This document shows positions 1-4,200 of a DNA stretch of 64,000 nt, piece after piece. The first letter of the stretch is position 1, and every line of letters starts with the position of its first letter. A program made the position numbers and the translations under genes. The notes beneath the pieces were generated by a model that saw nothing but the letters and a program-made list of their open reading frames with translations, made no database searches and was not told where the DNA came from. This DNA is from TPA_inf: Saccharomyces. Lineage: Eukaryota. The stretch lies in NCBI GenBank assembly GCA_000146045.2, contig BK006944.2:448001-512000 (forward strand), given 5' to 3'.

Positions 1-520
1 AAAAAATTCTCTGCAAAGGGGAAGAGAAGATTGCATAACTTCAACAATTGTTTTGAGCGTTTCCTTTTAGCATTTTTTTGTTTGGCTTTTGTTTGTTCTT
101 TTGTGTACTTTTCATGTATTTGATCTTCCATGTGCAAAAATAAGTGAAAAAGAGCTGAACTAAATGTAGTATTAAAATCAAGAACAAAACATAAAAAGGA
201 AAGGAGAAAATGGAACAATTGCTTAGTCAAATAATGTGAAGTTATAAAACTGCCGGAAGCCTATAAAAAATATTTTCTTTACTGAGACCGTGATCAGGAG
301 AACGAATGTGTATTAATAGCTGTATATATCTTATAAAGACGAAGCCTATTTACTATCAACGCTATGTAAGTTTGTACTATTATCCTTGTGAAACAAATAA
401 TTGGAGGACAGTCAATAGCATCATCTAACATCGTGAAACGAATCAGTGATTGAAAGGAATTAAATGAGCAACGTGCATAAATAATATCGGTAAAGAAAAA
501 AGAGCGCAATGGTTTCATGA

Positions 521-1963
521 CTATTCTACACCAAGTTGTTGCGCCATTTTATCTAAGCTGATCCCCTTTTCTGGTATGCTTACAGGAAGAGAATAGAAAT
601 ACTCTTCGTCAAATTCAACTTCGTCATCTGACCAATCGTTATCATCATCTGAGTCATCGATACTATGATCTCTAAAAGATACCCGCGACCGGTAAGAAAA
701 CCCCAACATCATCAATGTAGTAATTGATACTGTGATGGCAGTGAATATGAAAATCCTTTTGTCTAATTGAGATGCCGCCGATATGAATTCACCAGAATCT
801 AGTTCTGGTAAGTGCGGCACTTGCGAAAAGGTTGTAGAGAACAGTGTGGCCTGCTCATTAGCAGCGCCTGGATCAGAAATCTTATCTCTTCTTACTACTG
901 TTGGTGTACCTCCTTCATCTGGTGAAGCGAGCTCACCATTAGCGCTAAAGAGACCAAAATTTATTCCCGCTTTTTTATTCAATCCATCCGGATTAAGTAC
1001 TGCTACTAACGACTTCGTTGCGATAGCATTTGTTGTCGTAGTAGTCGTGATACTCAAAAACGTCGAAGTTGCGGTACTTGTTACGATTTTAGTTCTTGGA
1101 AACCATCTTCTTTTGGCTTTTGTCGACGTGATTAAAGTCGTCCCTGTTTCAGTATCAGTCTTGGTCCTGTAAAACCTGTTCACTGTGGTTATTATTTTAG
1201 GACTTTGGTATTCATTCACTAAGTAACGAGTAAAAATTTTCTTTGGCCTCCAAGAACTCCACCTTGTCATATGAATTTCGGTGGCAGTGTGAAATAATGG
1301 GGCCTTCGTATTTCGTTCTTTTTTACTGCCACTTTTATCATCGGTATCCTTACTACAGTTTTCAGAACTAACTTTCTTGTTCTCATGGTATTCGATTTTA
1401 CCTTCCCACTTCTTATCTTTCACACTACAGTCACCGTCGTTTTCTTCTTCATAACCAGTAGCTGGAGACAGAGTTTTACCACTTATCGTTCTTTCGCGCA
1501 AATATTGAACTTCATTATTAGCGTCAACCACTTCGAACATGTCAACTGATGATATAGTCTTTTGATTATTGGTTAAAGAGGTTAATAGTGCAGAAATTAA
1601 TTGGTTTTTTTCGAACTGCAAAGGGTTCCTAAAAAGAGTATTGTTTTGACCAACGAAATAAGACAATTTTCTACTAGAAAATTTGTTGCCTCTAGGTTTC
1701 AAAATCTCTCCGTCATCTAAAACTCCATTTGTCAATTGAAATTGTTCAACAACGATCTGCAACTTGTCATACTCATCTTTGGAGGTACAGTAATCGTGAA
1801 AGCAGCTATTATTAAGGGAACTCAAGGCACACTGTAAACATTTGCAGTTATCCAAGTCCTCCATTGTTTCATTATTCACAGTAACGCATGACCGACAAAA
1901 TGCATATTGTTCATCAAAATAACGGGACACGCATTCACTTAAATTTCGTTTCTTCACATGGAT
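521..1963 (-). CDS. YKR005C exon 2. Type-I membrane-protein-like: Cys-rich, NxS/T-rich luminal part, single C-terminal TM segment, acidic tail.
   Basis: The 478-aa ORF 521..1957 has no ATG at its 5' end (first codon GTG). The frame stays open upstream to a TAA inside a TACTAAT box. The TM helix [19 protein letters not shown] lies near the C-terminus. Position to the left of MRPL13 matches YKR005C, which I recall is intron-containing. Confidence 0.6.
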
Positions 1964-2020
1964 CTTGTCAGTAATAAAATCTAGAGAATATTAGTACCTC
2001 GGTAAATTTGTTGTACATAC

Positions 2021-2167
2021 GCAACTGGAGAGGAAGGGGGAAATCAGTTGTGAATTGTAACCTGGACATAAGTTAGGATCTGCCACAGTTTTGCTTTGAA
2101 CCGCTGCGAGAACGCTCCCACCACCACCGGCAAAGAGAACCAGCAGAGCGCTTAGACATTCCAACAT
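2021..2167 (-). CDS. YKR005C putative exon 1 (49 codons, [25 protein letters not shown]..., signal-peptide-like). It ends at a canonical GTATGT 5' splice site at 2020..2015.
   Basis: ATG at 2167..2165. The frame is open for 49 codons up to GTATGT. Splicing to the AG at 1965..1964 is phase 0 and joins in frame to exon 2. The hydrophobic N-terminus fits the secretory features of exon 2. Confidence 0.45.
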
Positions 2168-2422
2168 TATCAGTATATCTCGTGTGTTCCTGCCTCTTGA
2201 TGATTTTAGCTAGCTGTAATGTGTAACGAATTATTCCCTTACTGCTTCTTGAGTTAGCCGCCAAAGAGGAAATATAGCCACAAAAAGAACTTACAGAAAA
2301 GATAAGGTAAAAAAAAAAAGTGATCTATAATGGGAAAGAAAAATCCAAACTTCTTCAAAGAGTATATATATGTACAGGATATTAAAATGTAATGATAGTA
2401 GTAATAATAGTATTAACATAAG

Positions 2423-3217
2423 CTAAGCGGATCTTGCTGTTTCCAAAGCTTTTCTTGTTGCATCATCCTCTAACTTTTGAATTTCTTTCATAATAGTATC
2501 ATATTTACTTTTTTGCTCTTTAGAAGTAACATCGTTAACAACATATATGTTTGGTGACGCGTAATTATCAGAAAATGGGTGGATAGCATTTGGCTCAGCT
2601 TCTTTATAAGCGAGTTTAGGATCGTTGGCAGATGGCAAAATTTTTTCCTTAATATACCTTTTAAACTGCAAGGGTGTGCTTAAAGTGGTCAGTTCATAAT
2701 CAGGAATTAGATAGCCAGATTTAGATTGCAAAAATTTGGTGAACTGAAATTTAGCTACCAAATCAGAGAATTGGACGTCCTGGTCTACTTTGCCCAATGT
2801 TTTTTCCGTTGCCTGCAATATCATATCATCTAACTGATTATCAGACGTAATCTTATCCCTGGATAACCACTGATTGAATGGCGCAGAGGAGACCGCAAGC
2901 TTCAACTCCTTCTGTCTCTTACACCGTCTAGACCCTTCGCCAATAAAATTTTCTGGTATTAGCTCCAATCTGTTTTTGTTATTGGAAGAGGATTGAGAGG
3001 AAGCCTCGTTAGTGCCTTCTTCAATATCCTTTATCAACTGTTTGGTGTCCTTGACAGGCTCTTGGTGCTCTTCTTGCTTCTTCCTCTTGAACCATGACAT
3101 AAAGTCCCCGTTTGCAGCGGAACTGTGAATACATCTGGCTTTCTGCTTGTAGCCAGAGAGCCAGACCGACCTTTGCGGCAATGGTCTAATACAATGTAAT
3201 TTAAGCAGTGACGACAT
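2423..3217 (-). CDS. MRPL13: Mitochondrial ribosomal protein of the large subunit (264 aa). The ORF extends 11 codons further upstream to 3250.
   Basis: ORF 2423..3250. I recall the protein as 264 aa, which corresponds to the Met at MSSLLKLHC. It is the neighbour of MEH1 and RSC4. Confidence 0.75.
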
Positions 3218-3433
3218 CCTCATACTATGTCCGCCTTTCCGTCTACCCATTATTCACTTCAGGACTGATGATCAGGCATGCAGTTAATTTGACAGAAGTC
3301 GTTGTTTCACTATAAATTTGTCAGCTACCCGCCTCACCAGCAGCGATAAAGAACGAAGAATAAAAGAGAGCATTCACAGAGTACGAATCCAGTATAGCGG
3401 TAGTGGATACAACGACAGATTTAAGTCGTAAAA

Positions 3434-3988
3434 ATGGGAGCCGTACTCAGCTGTTGTAGAAACCATTCCGGCGAAGAGAATGAAGCTTTGCTGAGGGAAC
3501 AGCAGGCAGGCTATGGAAGTCAAGGAAACGCAAATGACGAATACGATGCCGAACAAATGCGGTTGAAGGAACACGAACACGAACAGAAACTGCTGGCCAG
3601 GGAACAAGAGTTAAGAGACATTGTTGCAAACACCAACGATAAACTAATAGACATATCGATGATAAACAATAGTGGCATTGTAATTCAAGGGACAGACCTG
3701 CAAGAAGCTCTTGATAAAAGACAACAGGAAGAAGGTGGAGATTCCCGGGAAGACGAAAGGAGTGCAGGTGATGACAACCTCAGTGGGCACTCAGTGCCTT
3801 CAAGCGGATCCGCACAGGCAACTACTCACCAAACTGCACCAAGGACTAATACGTTTACTCTGCTTACATCACCGGATTCAGCGAAAATATCAAAGGAACA
3901 GTTAAAGAAGTTGCACTCTAATATACTAAATGAAATTTTCAGCCAGTCCCAGGTAAACAAACCAGGCCCCTTGACGGTTCCCTTTTAA
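3434..3988 (+). CDS. MEH1: EGO/Ragulator-like vacuolar membrane anchor, 184 aa, with N-terminal MGAVLSCC myristoylation/palmitoylation motif
   Basis: 184-aa ORF. The MGxxxSCC lipidation motif is present. Position is between MRPL13 and RSC4. Confidence 0.85.
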   Translation: MGAVLSCCRNHSGEENEALLREQQAGYGSQGNANDEYDAEQMRLKEHEHEQKLLAREQELRDIVANTNDKLIDISMINNSGIVIQGTDLQEALDKRQQEEGGDSREDERSAGDDNLSGHSVPSSGSAQATTHQTAPRTNTFTLLTSPDSAKISKEQLKKLHSNILNEIFSQSQVNKPGPLTVPF

Positions 3989-4200
3989 TGAACTTTTTGT
4001 ATAACATCATTGGTATACAAGCTTTATAAATAAATGTTAAATAGTTAATGAAATAAAAAATCACATTTGACGAATTCGGAAGACAAGTAGCCCAAGAAAA
4101 AAAACAACAAAAGCATGCTAGAGGATGATGTTTAAAACGACCCTCAGCCTGTTATTACAATAGAGAGCAAACCAAAGAATAATAGATAAAGTACACAGAT

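What the first reader, a model, noticed from the sequence alone, without database searches (positions are those of the whole stretch)
1964..2167. YKR005C is probably a two-exon gene with a 57-nt intron and a signal-peptide first exon
The large ORF 521..1957 has no ATG at its 5' end. It stays open upstream only as far as a TAA inside a TACTAAT box. At 2020..2015 (minus strand) lies a canonical GTATGT. A 49-codon frame starting at the ATG at 2167 runs exactly up to that GTATGT. This frame encodes [25 protein letters not shown]..., which looks like a secretory signal peptide. Splicing GTATGT(2020)...AG(1964) is phase 0 and in frame with exon 2. Exon 2 has many Cys and NxS/T sites and one C-terminal TM helix, which is type-I membrane-protein topology and is consistent with a signal peptide. 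The intron would be only 57 nt, with a non-canonical branch box (TACTAAT, or TACTGAC close to the 3' splice site). That is at the lower limit for yeast introns. An alternative acceptor (TAG at 1983..1981, 40-nt intron, phase 1, start at the ATG at 2069) is possible but gives no signal peptide.
Basis: partly seen in the sequence, partly recalled or inferred. Interest (0 to 1): 0.5.

Follow-up and report, generated by a model that had tools for sequence, protein, structure and literature searches.

The report
Known YKR005C intron, 69 nt long

Summary
The window is S. cerevisiae chrXI (window coordinate + 448000) and the finding is YKR005C on the minus strand. The two-exon idea, the ATG at 2167, the GTATGT donor at 2020 and the signal peptide are all correct, but all are already known. 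The 525-aa RefSeq/UniProt protein is exactly exon 1 (2167..2021) joined to 1951..521. Published RNA-seq lists one junction, chrXI 449952-450020 (69 nt, GTATGT/TACTGAC/AAG). No alternative junction is reported. In seven Saccharomyces species, only the acceptor homologous to AAG 1954..1952 keeps the frame; it lies 16-17 nt after a conserved TACT(A/G)AC. Intron lengths are 69-75 nt. Exon 1 is exactly 147 nt with no indel in all seven. It encodes the signal peptide and two conserved cysteines of a Cys-rich ectodomain. One residual point is of minor interest: databases disagree on the branch site (UACUAAU versus UACUGAC), and the comparative data favour UACUGAC. Verdict: real feature, already known, with the acceptor mis-assigned. 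Low interest.

The parts
2021..2167 (-). Exon 1 coding part: ATG 2167 plus 49 codons. It encodes the signal peptide and the first ~24 residues of the mature ectodomain, including conserved Cys34 and Cys49.
   Evidence: translation. (exact match to the reference 525-aa protein). (exactly 147 nt, no indel or stop, in 7 species). (C49 invariant and C34 nearly invariant across Saccharomycetaceae homologues).
2093..2167 (-). Signal-peptide coding segment, about aa 1-25. Cleavage after VQS25 is inferred, not shown.
   Evidence: a Kyte-Doolittle 19-residue peak of 2.02 at aa 5-23, one of only two hydrophobic peaks; published SignalP-6.0 likelihood 0.9993. UniProt 'Precursor' flag on the same-length YJM789 entry YKY5_YEAS7.
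1952..2020 (-). The spliceosomal intron, 69 nt (chrXI 449952..450020).
   Evidence: Talkish et al. 2019, S1 Table, gives a 69-nt 'Ares intron' with junction reads 6/10/20/14; exact protein match; the only frame-preserving intron in all 7 species (69-75 nt).
2015..2020 (-). 5' splice site GTATGT.
   Evidence: Conserved in 6 of 7 species, with GTACGT in S. uvarum.
1967..1973 (-). Most likely branch site TACTGAC, with the branch A at 1968. It is 53 nt from the 5' splice site and 16 nt from the 3' splice site.
   Evidence: this position is conserved in all 7 species, as canonical TACTAAC in 5 and TACTGAC in S. cerevisiae and its closest relative. Talkish 2019 assigns TACTGACA. UACUGAC is a natural branch site in SUS1 intron 1. 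The branch site has not been mapped experimentally.
1990..1996 (-). Upstream branch-like box TACTAAT, which contains the in-frame TAA. The Ares database v4.1 annotates it as the branch site.
   Evidence: literature annotation UACUAAU; present only in S. cerevisiae and L002, and degenerate in the other 5 species.
1952..1954 (-). The real 3' splice site, AAG.
   Evidence: RNA-seq. (GTATGT/AAG). (AAG in 6 species and TAG in S. mikatae, always in frame).
1964..1966 (-). It is not used and lies 4 nt after branch A 1968.
   Evidence: out of frame or stop in 6 of 6 other species. (no such junction in the held tables). (the product is absent from databases).
1981..1983 (-). Cryptic TAG (40-nt intron). 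Its use from the ATG 2167 frame would shift the frame into a stop.
   Evidence: (no junction listed).
521..1951 (-). Exon 2 coding part (476 codons plus the stop at 521..523). It encodes a Cys-rich region, a Ser/Thr-rich stalk, a TM helix and an acidic tail.
698..754 (-). Coding segment for the single transmembrane helix, aa 449-467 ([19 protein letters not shown]).
   Evidence: Kyte-Doolittle 19-residue score 2.09. (nearly invariant among orthologues).
2254..2268 (-). URS1-like (Ume6-site-like) block CTCTTTGGCGGCTAA in the promoter.
   Evidence: 15 nt invariant in 7 species. (YKR005C reported as a Ume6 target induced late in meiosis).
2277..2285 (+). MSE-like (Ndt80-site-like) GCCACAAAA.
   Evidence: the core CACAAAA is conserved in 7 species. 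The match to the consensus gNCRCAAAW is from my own knowledge.

Best explanation
YKR005C is a standard two-exon yeast gene.

Gene structure and splicing. Exon 1 runs from ATG 2167 to 2021. A 69-nt spliceosomal intron (2020..1952) is removed using GTATGT as the 5' splice site. The branch site is most probably the conserved TACTGAC (branch A at 1968). The 3' splice site is AAG 1954..1952, the first AG far enough from that branch point (16 nt). The AAG at 1966..1964, only 4 nt away, is too close to be reached. Splicing removes the in-frame TAA and yields a 525-aa protein.

Protein. It has a cleavable signal peptide, a Cys-rich N-glycosylatable ectodomain that starts within exon 1, a Thr-rich stalk, one TM helix and a highly conserved acidic cytoplasmic tail. 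This is the layout of a type I membrane glycoprotein.

Regulation. A conserved URS1 and MSE upstream, together with published reports, point to meiosis- or sporulation-specific transcription. That would explain the low vegetative read counts.

Shown: the junction, the frame, the conservation and the hydrophobic segments. Inferred: which branch adenosine is used, the signal-peptide cleavage site, the membrane topology, the meiotic timing and the biological role.
For: -: the 525-aa product (69-nt intron) is an exact match to 'uncharacterized protein YKR005C [S288C]' in RefSeq/UniProt. The 529-aa product (57-nt) and the 502-aa product (40-nt) are absent.
- Talkish et al. 2019 (PMC6726248), S1 Table, lists chrXI 449951-450020, minus strand, 69 nt, 53 nt from 5' splice site to branch point, 16 nt from branch point to 3' splice site, GTATGT / TACTGACA / AAG, 'Ares intron', with junction reads 6/10/20/14. 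Their S6 Table has the homologous 71-nt S. mikatae intron with one junction read.
- Kawashima et al. 2014, Table S4, lists YKR005C among intron-containing genes with no alternative junction in wild-type or NMD-deficient strains.
- in 7 Saccharomyces species only this acceptor is in frame (introns of 69, 71, 71, 71, 75, 73 and 73 nt). TACT(A/G)AC is conserved 16-17 nt upstream of it.
- exon 1 is 147 nt without indels in all seven. The start of exon 2 shows a third-position substitution bias (7/6/20).
- Cys49 (the last codon of exon 1) and Cys56 are invariant in homologues from Kazachstania, Naumovozyma and Kluyveromyces. The C-x6-C spacing matches the 69-nt junction in 8 of 10 sequences.
- hydrophobic peaks occur only at aa 1-25 and 449-467, and the published SignalP-6.0 likelihood is 0.9993.
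- conserved URS1 and MSE motifs, and a published report of Ume6 targeting.
Against: - Read support is low (6-20 junction reads, FPKM 4-8) and comes from vegetative cells. The meiotic transcript, probably the relevant one, was not examined here.
- The held supplement files are truncated, so a rare alternative junction could have been missed.
- The branch point has never been mapped as far as I could find, and the Ares database annotates UACUAAU instead.
- Two distant homologues (P0032, P0036) have C-x10-C spacing, so the cysteine-spacing argument is not absolute.
- AAG is a weaker 3' splice site than YAG.
- Topology and localisation are predictions only, and the AlphaFold model was unusable (pLDDT 29).
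Confidence: 0.93

Rival explanations
1. One reading: a 57-nt intron (2020..1964) using AAG 1966..1964, giving a 529-aa protein with four extra residues (IHVK) after Cys49.
For: It is in frame in S. cerevisiae. If the upstream TACTAAT were the branch site, this AAG would lie 27 nt downstream, a normal distance. Two distant homologues have a C-x10-C spacing equal to that of this product.
Against: - The exact 529-aa sequence is absent from the protein collection, while the 525-aa sequence is present.
- No junction with that coordinate appears in the Talkish tables, and Kawashima found no alternative junctions.
- The homologous AG gives a frameshift or stop in all 6 other Saccharomyces species. 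One-nucleotide indels occur in 4 of the 6 other species between the two AAGs, so that stretch is not coding.
- The site lies only 3-4 nt after the conserved branch adenosine.
Confidence: 0.03
2. The same 69-nt intron, but the branch point used in S. cerevisiae is the upstream UACUAAU (A1991), as annotated in the Ares intron database, rather than UACUGAC (A1968).
For:: YKR005c is listed among four yeast introns annotated with U at branch-site position 7. Msl5 binds C7U RNA in vitro. TACTAAT keeps the ACUAA core that TACTGAC lacks. The box is shared by S. cerevisiae and its closest relative L002, the two species in which the downstream site carries A5G.
Against: - The box is not conserved in the other 5 species, whereas the downstream site is conserved in all 7.
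- Its use would put the branch about 30 nt from the 5' splice site. It would also require skipping TAG (+10) and AAG (+27) to reach AAG (+39), with no predicted structure to mask them (z = 0.68).
- Yeast normally uses the first accessible AG after the branch.
- A later paper from the Ares laboratory assigns TACTGACA, and UACUGAC is a functional branch site in SUS1.
Confidence: 0.2
3. A 40-nt intron (2020..1981, TAG acceptor) with translation starting at ATG 2069, giving a 502-aa protein without a signal peptide.
For: The arithmetic works. TAG is a better acceptor triplet than AAG.
Against: - At 40 nt it would be shorter than the shortest known yeast intron, 52 nt.
- The product is absent from databases and no junction is listed.
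- The TAG is missing in L002 and S. arboricola.
- The model ignores the conserved ATG-2167 frame.
Confidence: 0.01
4. No functional intron: the gene is the unspliced 447-aa ORF starting at ATG 1864 (the original 1990s annotation), and the upstream frame is fortuitous.
For: The 447-aa version is still deposited for several strains (CAA46247, EDZ70892).
Against: - Junction reads exist.
- Exon 1 and all splice signals are conserved in 7 species, with intron lengths that are not multiples of 3 in 5 of the 7 (69 and 75 nt are multiples of 3).
- The conserved coding sequence between 1951 and 1864 ([12 protein letters not shown]) would be lost.
Confidence: 0.01

Closest known systems
The annotated YKR005C intron (SGD / Ares yeast intron database 'standard intron', chrXI 449952..450020)
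   Same: It is the same locus. ATG, donor, acceptor and product are identical to the reference once the acceptor is placed at 1952.
   Different: Nothing else differs.
SUS1 intron 1 (non-consensus branch site UACUGAC)
   Same: The same A5G branch-site variant.
   Different: [quoted passage not shown] YKR005C has a consensus GUAUGU. No dependence was tested here.
Yeast introns annotated with a UACUAAU branch site (SCS22, HRB1, GMC2)
   Same: YKR005C is listed with them in the literature.
   Different: In YKR005C the UACUAAU box is not conserved beyond the closest relative, and a conserved downstream site explains the 3' splice site better.
Short yeast introns such as MATa1 (52 nt, the shortest known)
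   Same: A small intron with a tight branch point to 3' splice site spacing.
   Different: At 69 nt it is not at the lower limit.

Membership tests
S. cerevisiae spliceosomal intron (standard annotated intron) | Consensus 5' splice site GUAUGU | tested here: met
   GTATGT at 2020..2015. Conserved in 6 of 7 species, with GTACGT in S. uvarum.
S. cerevisiae spliceosomal intron (standard annotated intron) | UACUAAC-type branch site upstream of the 3' splice site | tested here: met
   TACTGAC at 1973..1967. The homologous site is TACTAAC in 5 species. The variant is known to function in SUS1. The branch adenosine itself has not been mapped.
S. cerevisiae spliceosomal intron (standard annotated intron) | An AG 3' splice site at a workable distance (about 10 nt or more) after the branch point | tested here: met
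AAG 1954..1952 lies 16 nt after A1968.
S. cerevisiae spliceosomal intron (standard annotated intron) | Spliced junction observed in RNA | tested here: met
   Taken from the literature, not from my own data. Talkish 2019, S1 Table, has junction reads 6/10/20/14 for the 69-nt intron. Kawashima 2014, Table S4, gives GTATGT/AAG.
S. cerevisiae spliceosomal intron (standard annotated intron) | Removal restores a conserved open reading frame | tested here: met
   In frame in 7 of 7 species only for this acceptor. Exact match to the reference protein.
Type I membrane protein with a cleavable signal peptide | N-terminal hydrophobic signal sequence | tested here: met
   Kyte-Doolittle peak at aa 5-23. 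Published SignalP-6.0 likelihood 0.9993. UniProt 'Precursor' flag on the same-length YJM789 entry YKY5_YEAS7. SignalP was not run here.
Type I membrane protein with a cleavable signal peptide | A single TM helix near the C-terminus, with the Cys- and N-glycosylation-rich part on the lumenal side | tested here: met
   The only other hydrophobic peak is at aa 449-467. 12 of 13 Cys (all but Cys4, in the signal peptide) and all 5 sequons lie between the signal peptide and the TM helix, and a 58-aa acidic tail follows it.
Type I membrane protein with a cleavable signal peptide | Experimentally shown secretory-pathway localisation and topology | not testable with these tools
   No localisation data were found in the searched literature.
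CFEM domain proteins (the name UniRef gives the K. africana homologue) | A match to Pfam CFEM (PF05730), an 8-Cys domain | tested here: not met
   No CFEM hit at E <= 1 for the S. cerevisiae protein, and none at E <= 0.1 for 7 homologues including K. africana P0024.
Ume6/URS1- and Ndt80/MSE-controlled meiotic genes | Conserved URS1 (GGCGGCTA) and MSE (CRCAAAW) motifs in the promoter | tested here: met
   An invariant 15-nt block containing GGCGGCTA, and a conserved CACAAAA, in 7 species. YKR005C is reported as a Ume6 target.
Ume6/URS1- and Ndt80/MSE-controlled meiotic genes | Meiosis-specific induction of the mRNA | not testable with these tools
   [quoted passage not shown] No expression data were analysed here.

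The most novel reading that the evidence does not exclude
Branch-site turnover in a very short intron. In the lineage of S. cerevisiae and its closest relative, the ancestral canonical UACUAAC has decayed to UACUGAC, and a new UACUAAU box has arisen 23 nt upstream. The two may compete. Meiotic or stress conditions could then produce non-productive or +4-aa isoforms that vegetative RNA-seq has not seen. This would also settle the conflicting database annotations of the branch site.
Probability: 0.12. Interest if true: 0.3.

Novelty: already known. Interest (0 to 1): 0.08.

Why it matters
It matters little beyond quality control. The gene structure, including the signal-peptide exon, is already in SGD, RefSeq and UniProt and in intron databases.

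The useful outcomes are these:
This shows that an in-frame AG in one species is not sufficient evidence for a splice site.
- The comparative data indicate that UACUGAC, not the database-listed UACUAAU, is the ancestral and probably the used branch site.
- Exon 1 is missing from the public gene models of the S. eubayanus, S. uvarum and S. arboricola orthologues, although it is intact in their DNA.
- The protein remains an uncharacterised Saccharomycetaceae-specific membrane glycoprotein, probably meiosis-regulated, with a strikingly conserved cytoplasmic tail.

Tried and rejected
- Davis et al. 2000 (NAR 28:1700). I recall this paper as an early experimental test of yeast intron predictions, but it is not held, so I make no claim from it.
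- Branch-seq (PMC5029451) and LIT-seq (PMC4712674). Their supplements, which might hold a mapped branch point, are not held. The supplement of Douglass et al. (bioRxiv 515163) has no YKR005C entry.
- Structure prediction. AlphaFold2 on a 7-sequence alignment gave pLDDT 29.4 and pTM 0.17. That is unusable, so I ran no fold search.
- Pfam. Only a sub-threshold UBA_4 hit (E = 0.066) for the S. cerevisiae protein, and no family at E <= 0.1 beyond a sub-threshold Trypan_PARP hit (E = 0.065) on the K. africana homologue.
- Second word-indexed protein search, with a 10-sequence profile. It returned only the same 7 Saccharomyces proteins, so I could not fetch the loci of distant homologues (Kazachstania, Naumovozyma, Kluyveromyces, Zygosaccharomyces). 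Whether the intron predates the genus remains untested. A. gossypii AEL289W-A is annotated as a single-exon homologue.
- RNA structure and families. The intron fold is not better than shuffles (z = 0.68), so there is no evidence for structure masking the cryptic AGs. No Rfam family matches in 1..4000.
- Motif statistics. GTATGT and the composite splice pattern are not enriched over shuffles, so I rejected them as evidence.

Full report
**Observation.** Reading the minus strand of 400..2700 and listing ORFs confirms every sequence statement in the finding.
- The 478-codon ORF 521..1957 begins with GTG. Its frame is open upstream only to TAA 1993..1991, inside TACTAAT (1996..1990). Its first in-frame ATG is far downstream, at 1864.
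- GTATGT lies at 2020..2015.
- The ATG at 2167 opens a 49-codon frame ([49 protein letters not shown]) that ends exactly at that GTATGT.
- Exon 1 and the large ORF are in the same frame, separated by the single TAA.
- The motifs alone carry no statistical weight. GTATGT occurs 26 times in the window against 25.1 expected. A composite GTATGT...TACTRAY...AG pattern occurs once in the window against about 8 in shuffles.

**What is already on record.** I looked up the alternative products by exact sequence among about 15 billion public proteins.
- The 69-nt-intron product (525 aa) is present. It is 'uncharacterized protein YKR005C [Saccharomyces cerevisiae S288C]' in RefSeq and UniProt. The same-length UniProt entry for strain YJM789 (YKY5_YEAS7) is flagged 'Precursor'.
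- The old unspliced 447-aa version is also present.
- YKR005C is treated as an intron-containing gene by the Sc2.0 synXI paper and by Jacewicz et al. 2015.
- Talkish et al. 2019 (PMC6726248), S1 Table 'standard introns', lists chrXI 449951-450020, minus strand, length 69, 53 nt from 5' splice site to branch point, 16 nt from branch point to 3' splice site, GTATGT, TACTGACA, AAG, 'YKR005C', 'Ares intron', with 6, 10, 20 and 14 junction reads in four libraries. This fixes the offset (window coordinate + 448000) and places the intron at window 2020..1952.
- No row with the coordinates expected for a 57-nt or 40-nt intron exists in the held parts of their tables. Those files are truncated.
- Kawashima et al. 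[quoted passage not shown]

**Comparative test.** A protein search found orthologues only in Saccharomyces. I fetched six loci:
- S. kudriavzevii (L001), S. eubayanus (L005), S. arboricola (L006) and S. uvarum (L007).
- An unnamed assembly closest to S. cerevisiae (L002), probably S. paradoxus by inference.
- L003, whose intron is identical to the S. mikatae intron printed in Talkish S6 Table.

The alignment and a frame analysis of every AG show the following.
- Exon 1 is exactly 147 nt from the homologous ATG to GTA(T/C)GT in all seven species, with no indel and no stop.
- The intron varies in length (69, 71, 71, 71, 75, 73 and 73 nt). In five of the seven species the length is not a multiple of three, so there the intron must be removed.
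- The only acceptor that restores the frame in all seven species is the homologue of AAG 1954..1952 (TAG in S. mikatae). It lies 16-17 nt after the branch adenosine of a conserved TACT(A/G)AC.
One-nucleotide indels occur between the two AAGs in four of them, which shows that this stretch is non-coding.
- The 57-nt model therefore works in S. cerevisiae only because the two AAGs happen to be 12 nt apart.
- The first 96 nt of exon 2 show the substitution pattern of coding sequence, with 7/6/20 variable columns at codon positions 1/2/3.

**Distant homologues.** A profile search of 1.8 billion representatives found relatives in Kazachstania, Naumovozyma, Kluyveromyces, Monosporozyma and Zygosaccharomyces.
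- Full-length models carry a hydrophobic N-terminus followed by ...LCP...FL(S/T)SC, then six residues and the next Cys.
- In the alignment, Cys49 (the last codon of exon 1) and Cys56 are invariant, and Cys34 is nearly so.
- Eight of ten sequences have the C-x6-C spacing produced by the 69-nt junction. Two (P0032, P0036) have x10, so this argument is supportive rather than decisive.
- Exon 1 therefore encodes more than a signal peptide. It also carries the first two conserved cysteines of the ectodomain.

**Branch site.** Jacewicz et al. cite the Ares database as annotating UACUAAU for YKR005c. Talkish et al., from the same laboratory, assign TACTGACA. I found no experimental mapping.
- The comparative data favour TACTGAC (1973..1967). 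That position is conserved in all seven species and is canonical TACTAAC in five of them. TACTAAT exists only in S. cerevisiae and L002.
- A branch at A1968 explains the 3' splice site simply. The AAG 4 nt away is too close, and AAG 1952 is the first accessible AG.
- A branch at A1991 would lie about 30 nt from the 5' splice site and would require skipping two AGs. The intron has no predicted structure to mask them, and yeast normally splices to the first unmasked AG after the branch (Gahura et al. 2011).
- UACUGAC is a functional natural branch site in SUS1 intron 1.
- I put about 0.75 on TACTGAC and 0.2 on TACTAAT.

**Product and regulation.**
- The 525-aa protein has only two hydrophobic segments, at aa 1-25 and 449-467. 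Twelve of its 13 Cys (all but Cys4 in the signal peptide) and all five N-x-S/T sequons lie between them. A 58-residue acidic tail follows.
- A published SignalP-6.0 run gave a likelihood of 0.9993.
- The TM helix and the tail ([28 protein letters not shown]) are the most conserved parts.
- No Pfam family matches. The 'CFEM' name that UniRef attaches to one homologue is not supported. AlphaFold gave an unusable model.
- Upstream of the ATG, a 15-nt block containing GGCGGCTA (URS1-like) and a CACAAAA (MSE-like) are conserved in all seven species. This agrees with a report that YKR005C is a Ume6 target induced late in meiosis, and it would explain the low vegetative read counts. The consensus assignments are from my own knowledge.

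**Verdict.** The feature is real, but it is the standard, already annotated YKR005C intron.
The intron is 69 nt (2020..1952), not 57 nt, so it is not at the lower size limit for yeast, which is 52 nt in MATa1.
- The only residual open point is which branch adenosine is used, together with the small possibility of condition-specific alternative 3' splice sites.

Noticed in passing
window 2254..2268 (minus strand) and 2277..2285 (plus strand): The promoter of YKR005C carries an invariant 15-nt block CTCTTTGGCGGCTAA (URS1/Ume6-like) and a conserved GCCACAAAA (MSE/Ndt80-like) in all 7 Saccharomyces loci, about 95-120 nt upstream of the ATG. This fits a published statement that the gene is a Ume6 target induced late in meiosis.
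   Followed up: partly
L005 2289..2510, L006 2176..2420, L007 2193..2420, and the regions upstream of the called genes in L002 and L003: Public gene models of the orthologues in S. eubayanus (P0019, whose start codon lies inside the intron's 3' end), S. uvarum (P0021) and S. arboricola (P0020), and in two unnamed assemblies, lack exon 1 and therefore the signal peptide. The DNA nevertheless has an intact 147-nt exon 1, donor, TACTAAC and in-frame acceptor. These models are mis-annotated.
   Followed up: yes
window 1967..1996: Published sources disagree on the branch site of this intron. It is UACUAAU in the Ares database v4.1, as cited by Jacewicz et al. 2015, and TACTGACA in Talkish et al. 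2019. The downstream site is the conserved one. In the two species where it carries A5G, an upstream TACTAAT box is present, which may indicate branch-site turnover.
   Followed up: partly
whole window, both strands: The composite intron-like pattern GTATGT..(20-500)..TACTRAY..(6-45)..AG occurs once in the real 64-kb window (the YKR005C intron) but about 8 times (sd 3.3) in block-shuffled versions. This suggests depletion of spurious splice-signal combinations.
   Followed up: no
window 524..697 (minus strand; aa 468-525): The cytoplasmic tail is almost invariant among Saccharomyces orthologues (…[28 protein letters not shown]). The C-terminal L-x-V-(D/E) is retained in the Kazachstania and Naumovozyma homologues but not in the Kluyveromyces ones, while the ectodomain stalk evolves fast with variable Thr-rich TxTxT repeats. 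The tail looks like a conserved interaction or sorting motif.
   Followed up: no
window 2363..2381 (minus strand): An invariant TGTACATATATATA block lies about 45 nt downstream of the stop codon of the upstream gene (ORF 2423..3250, whose orthologues hit Pfam Ribosomal_L50). It is probably that gene's 3'-end formation signal, in a 255-nt intergenic region it shares with the YKR005C promoter.
   Followed up: no
P0022 (217 aa, S. kudriavzevii-like): A database protein starts inside the intron and reads through it (MYDELIELVQPLDFVLLTSSIFKNQDLNKC...). It is another mis-annotation caused by the intron being open in one frame in that species.
   Followed up: no
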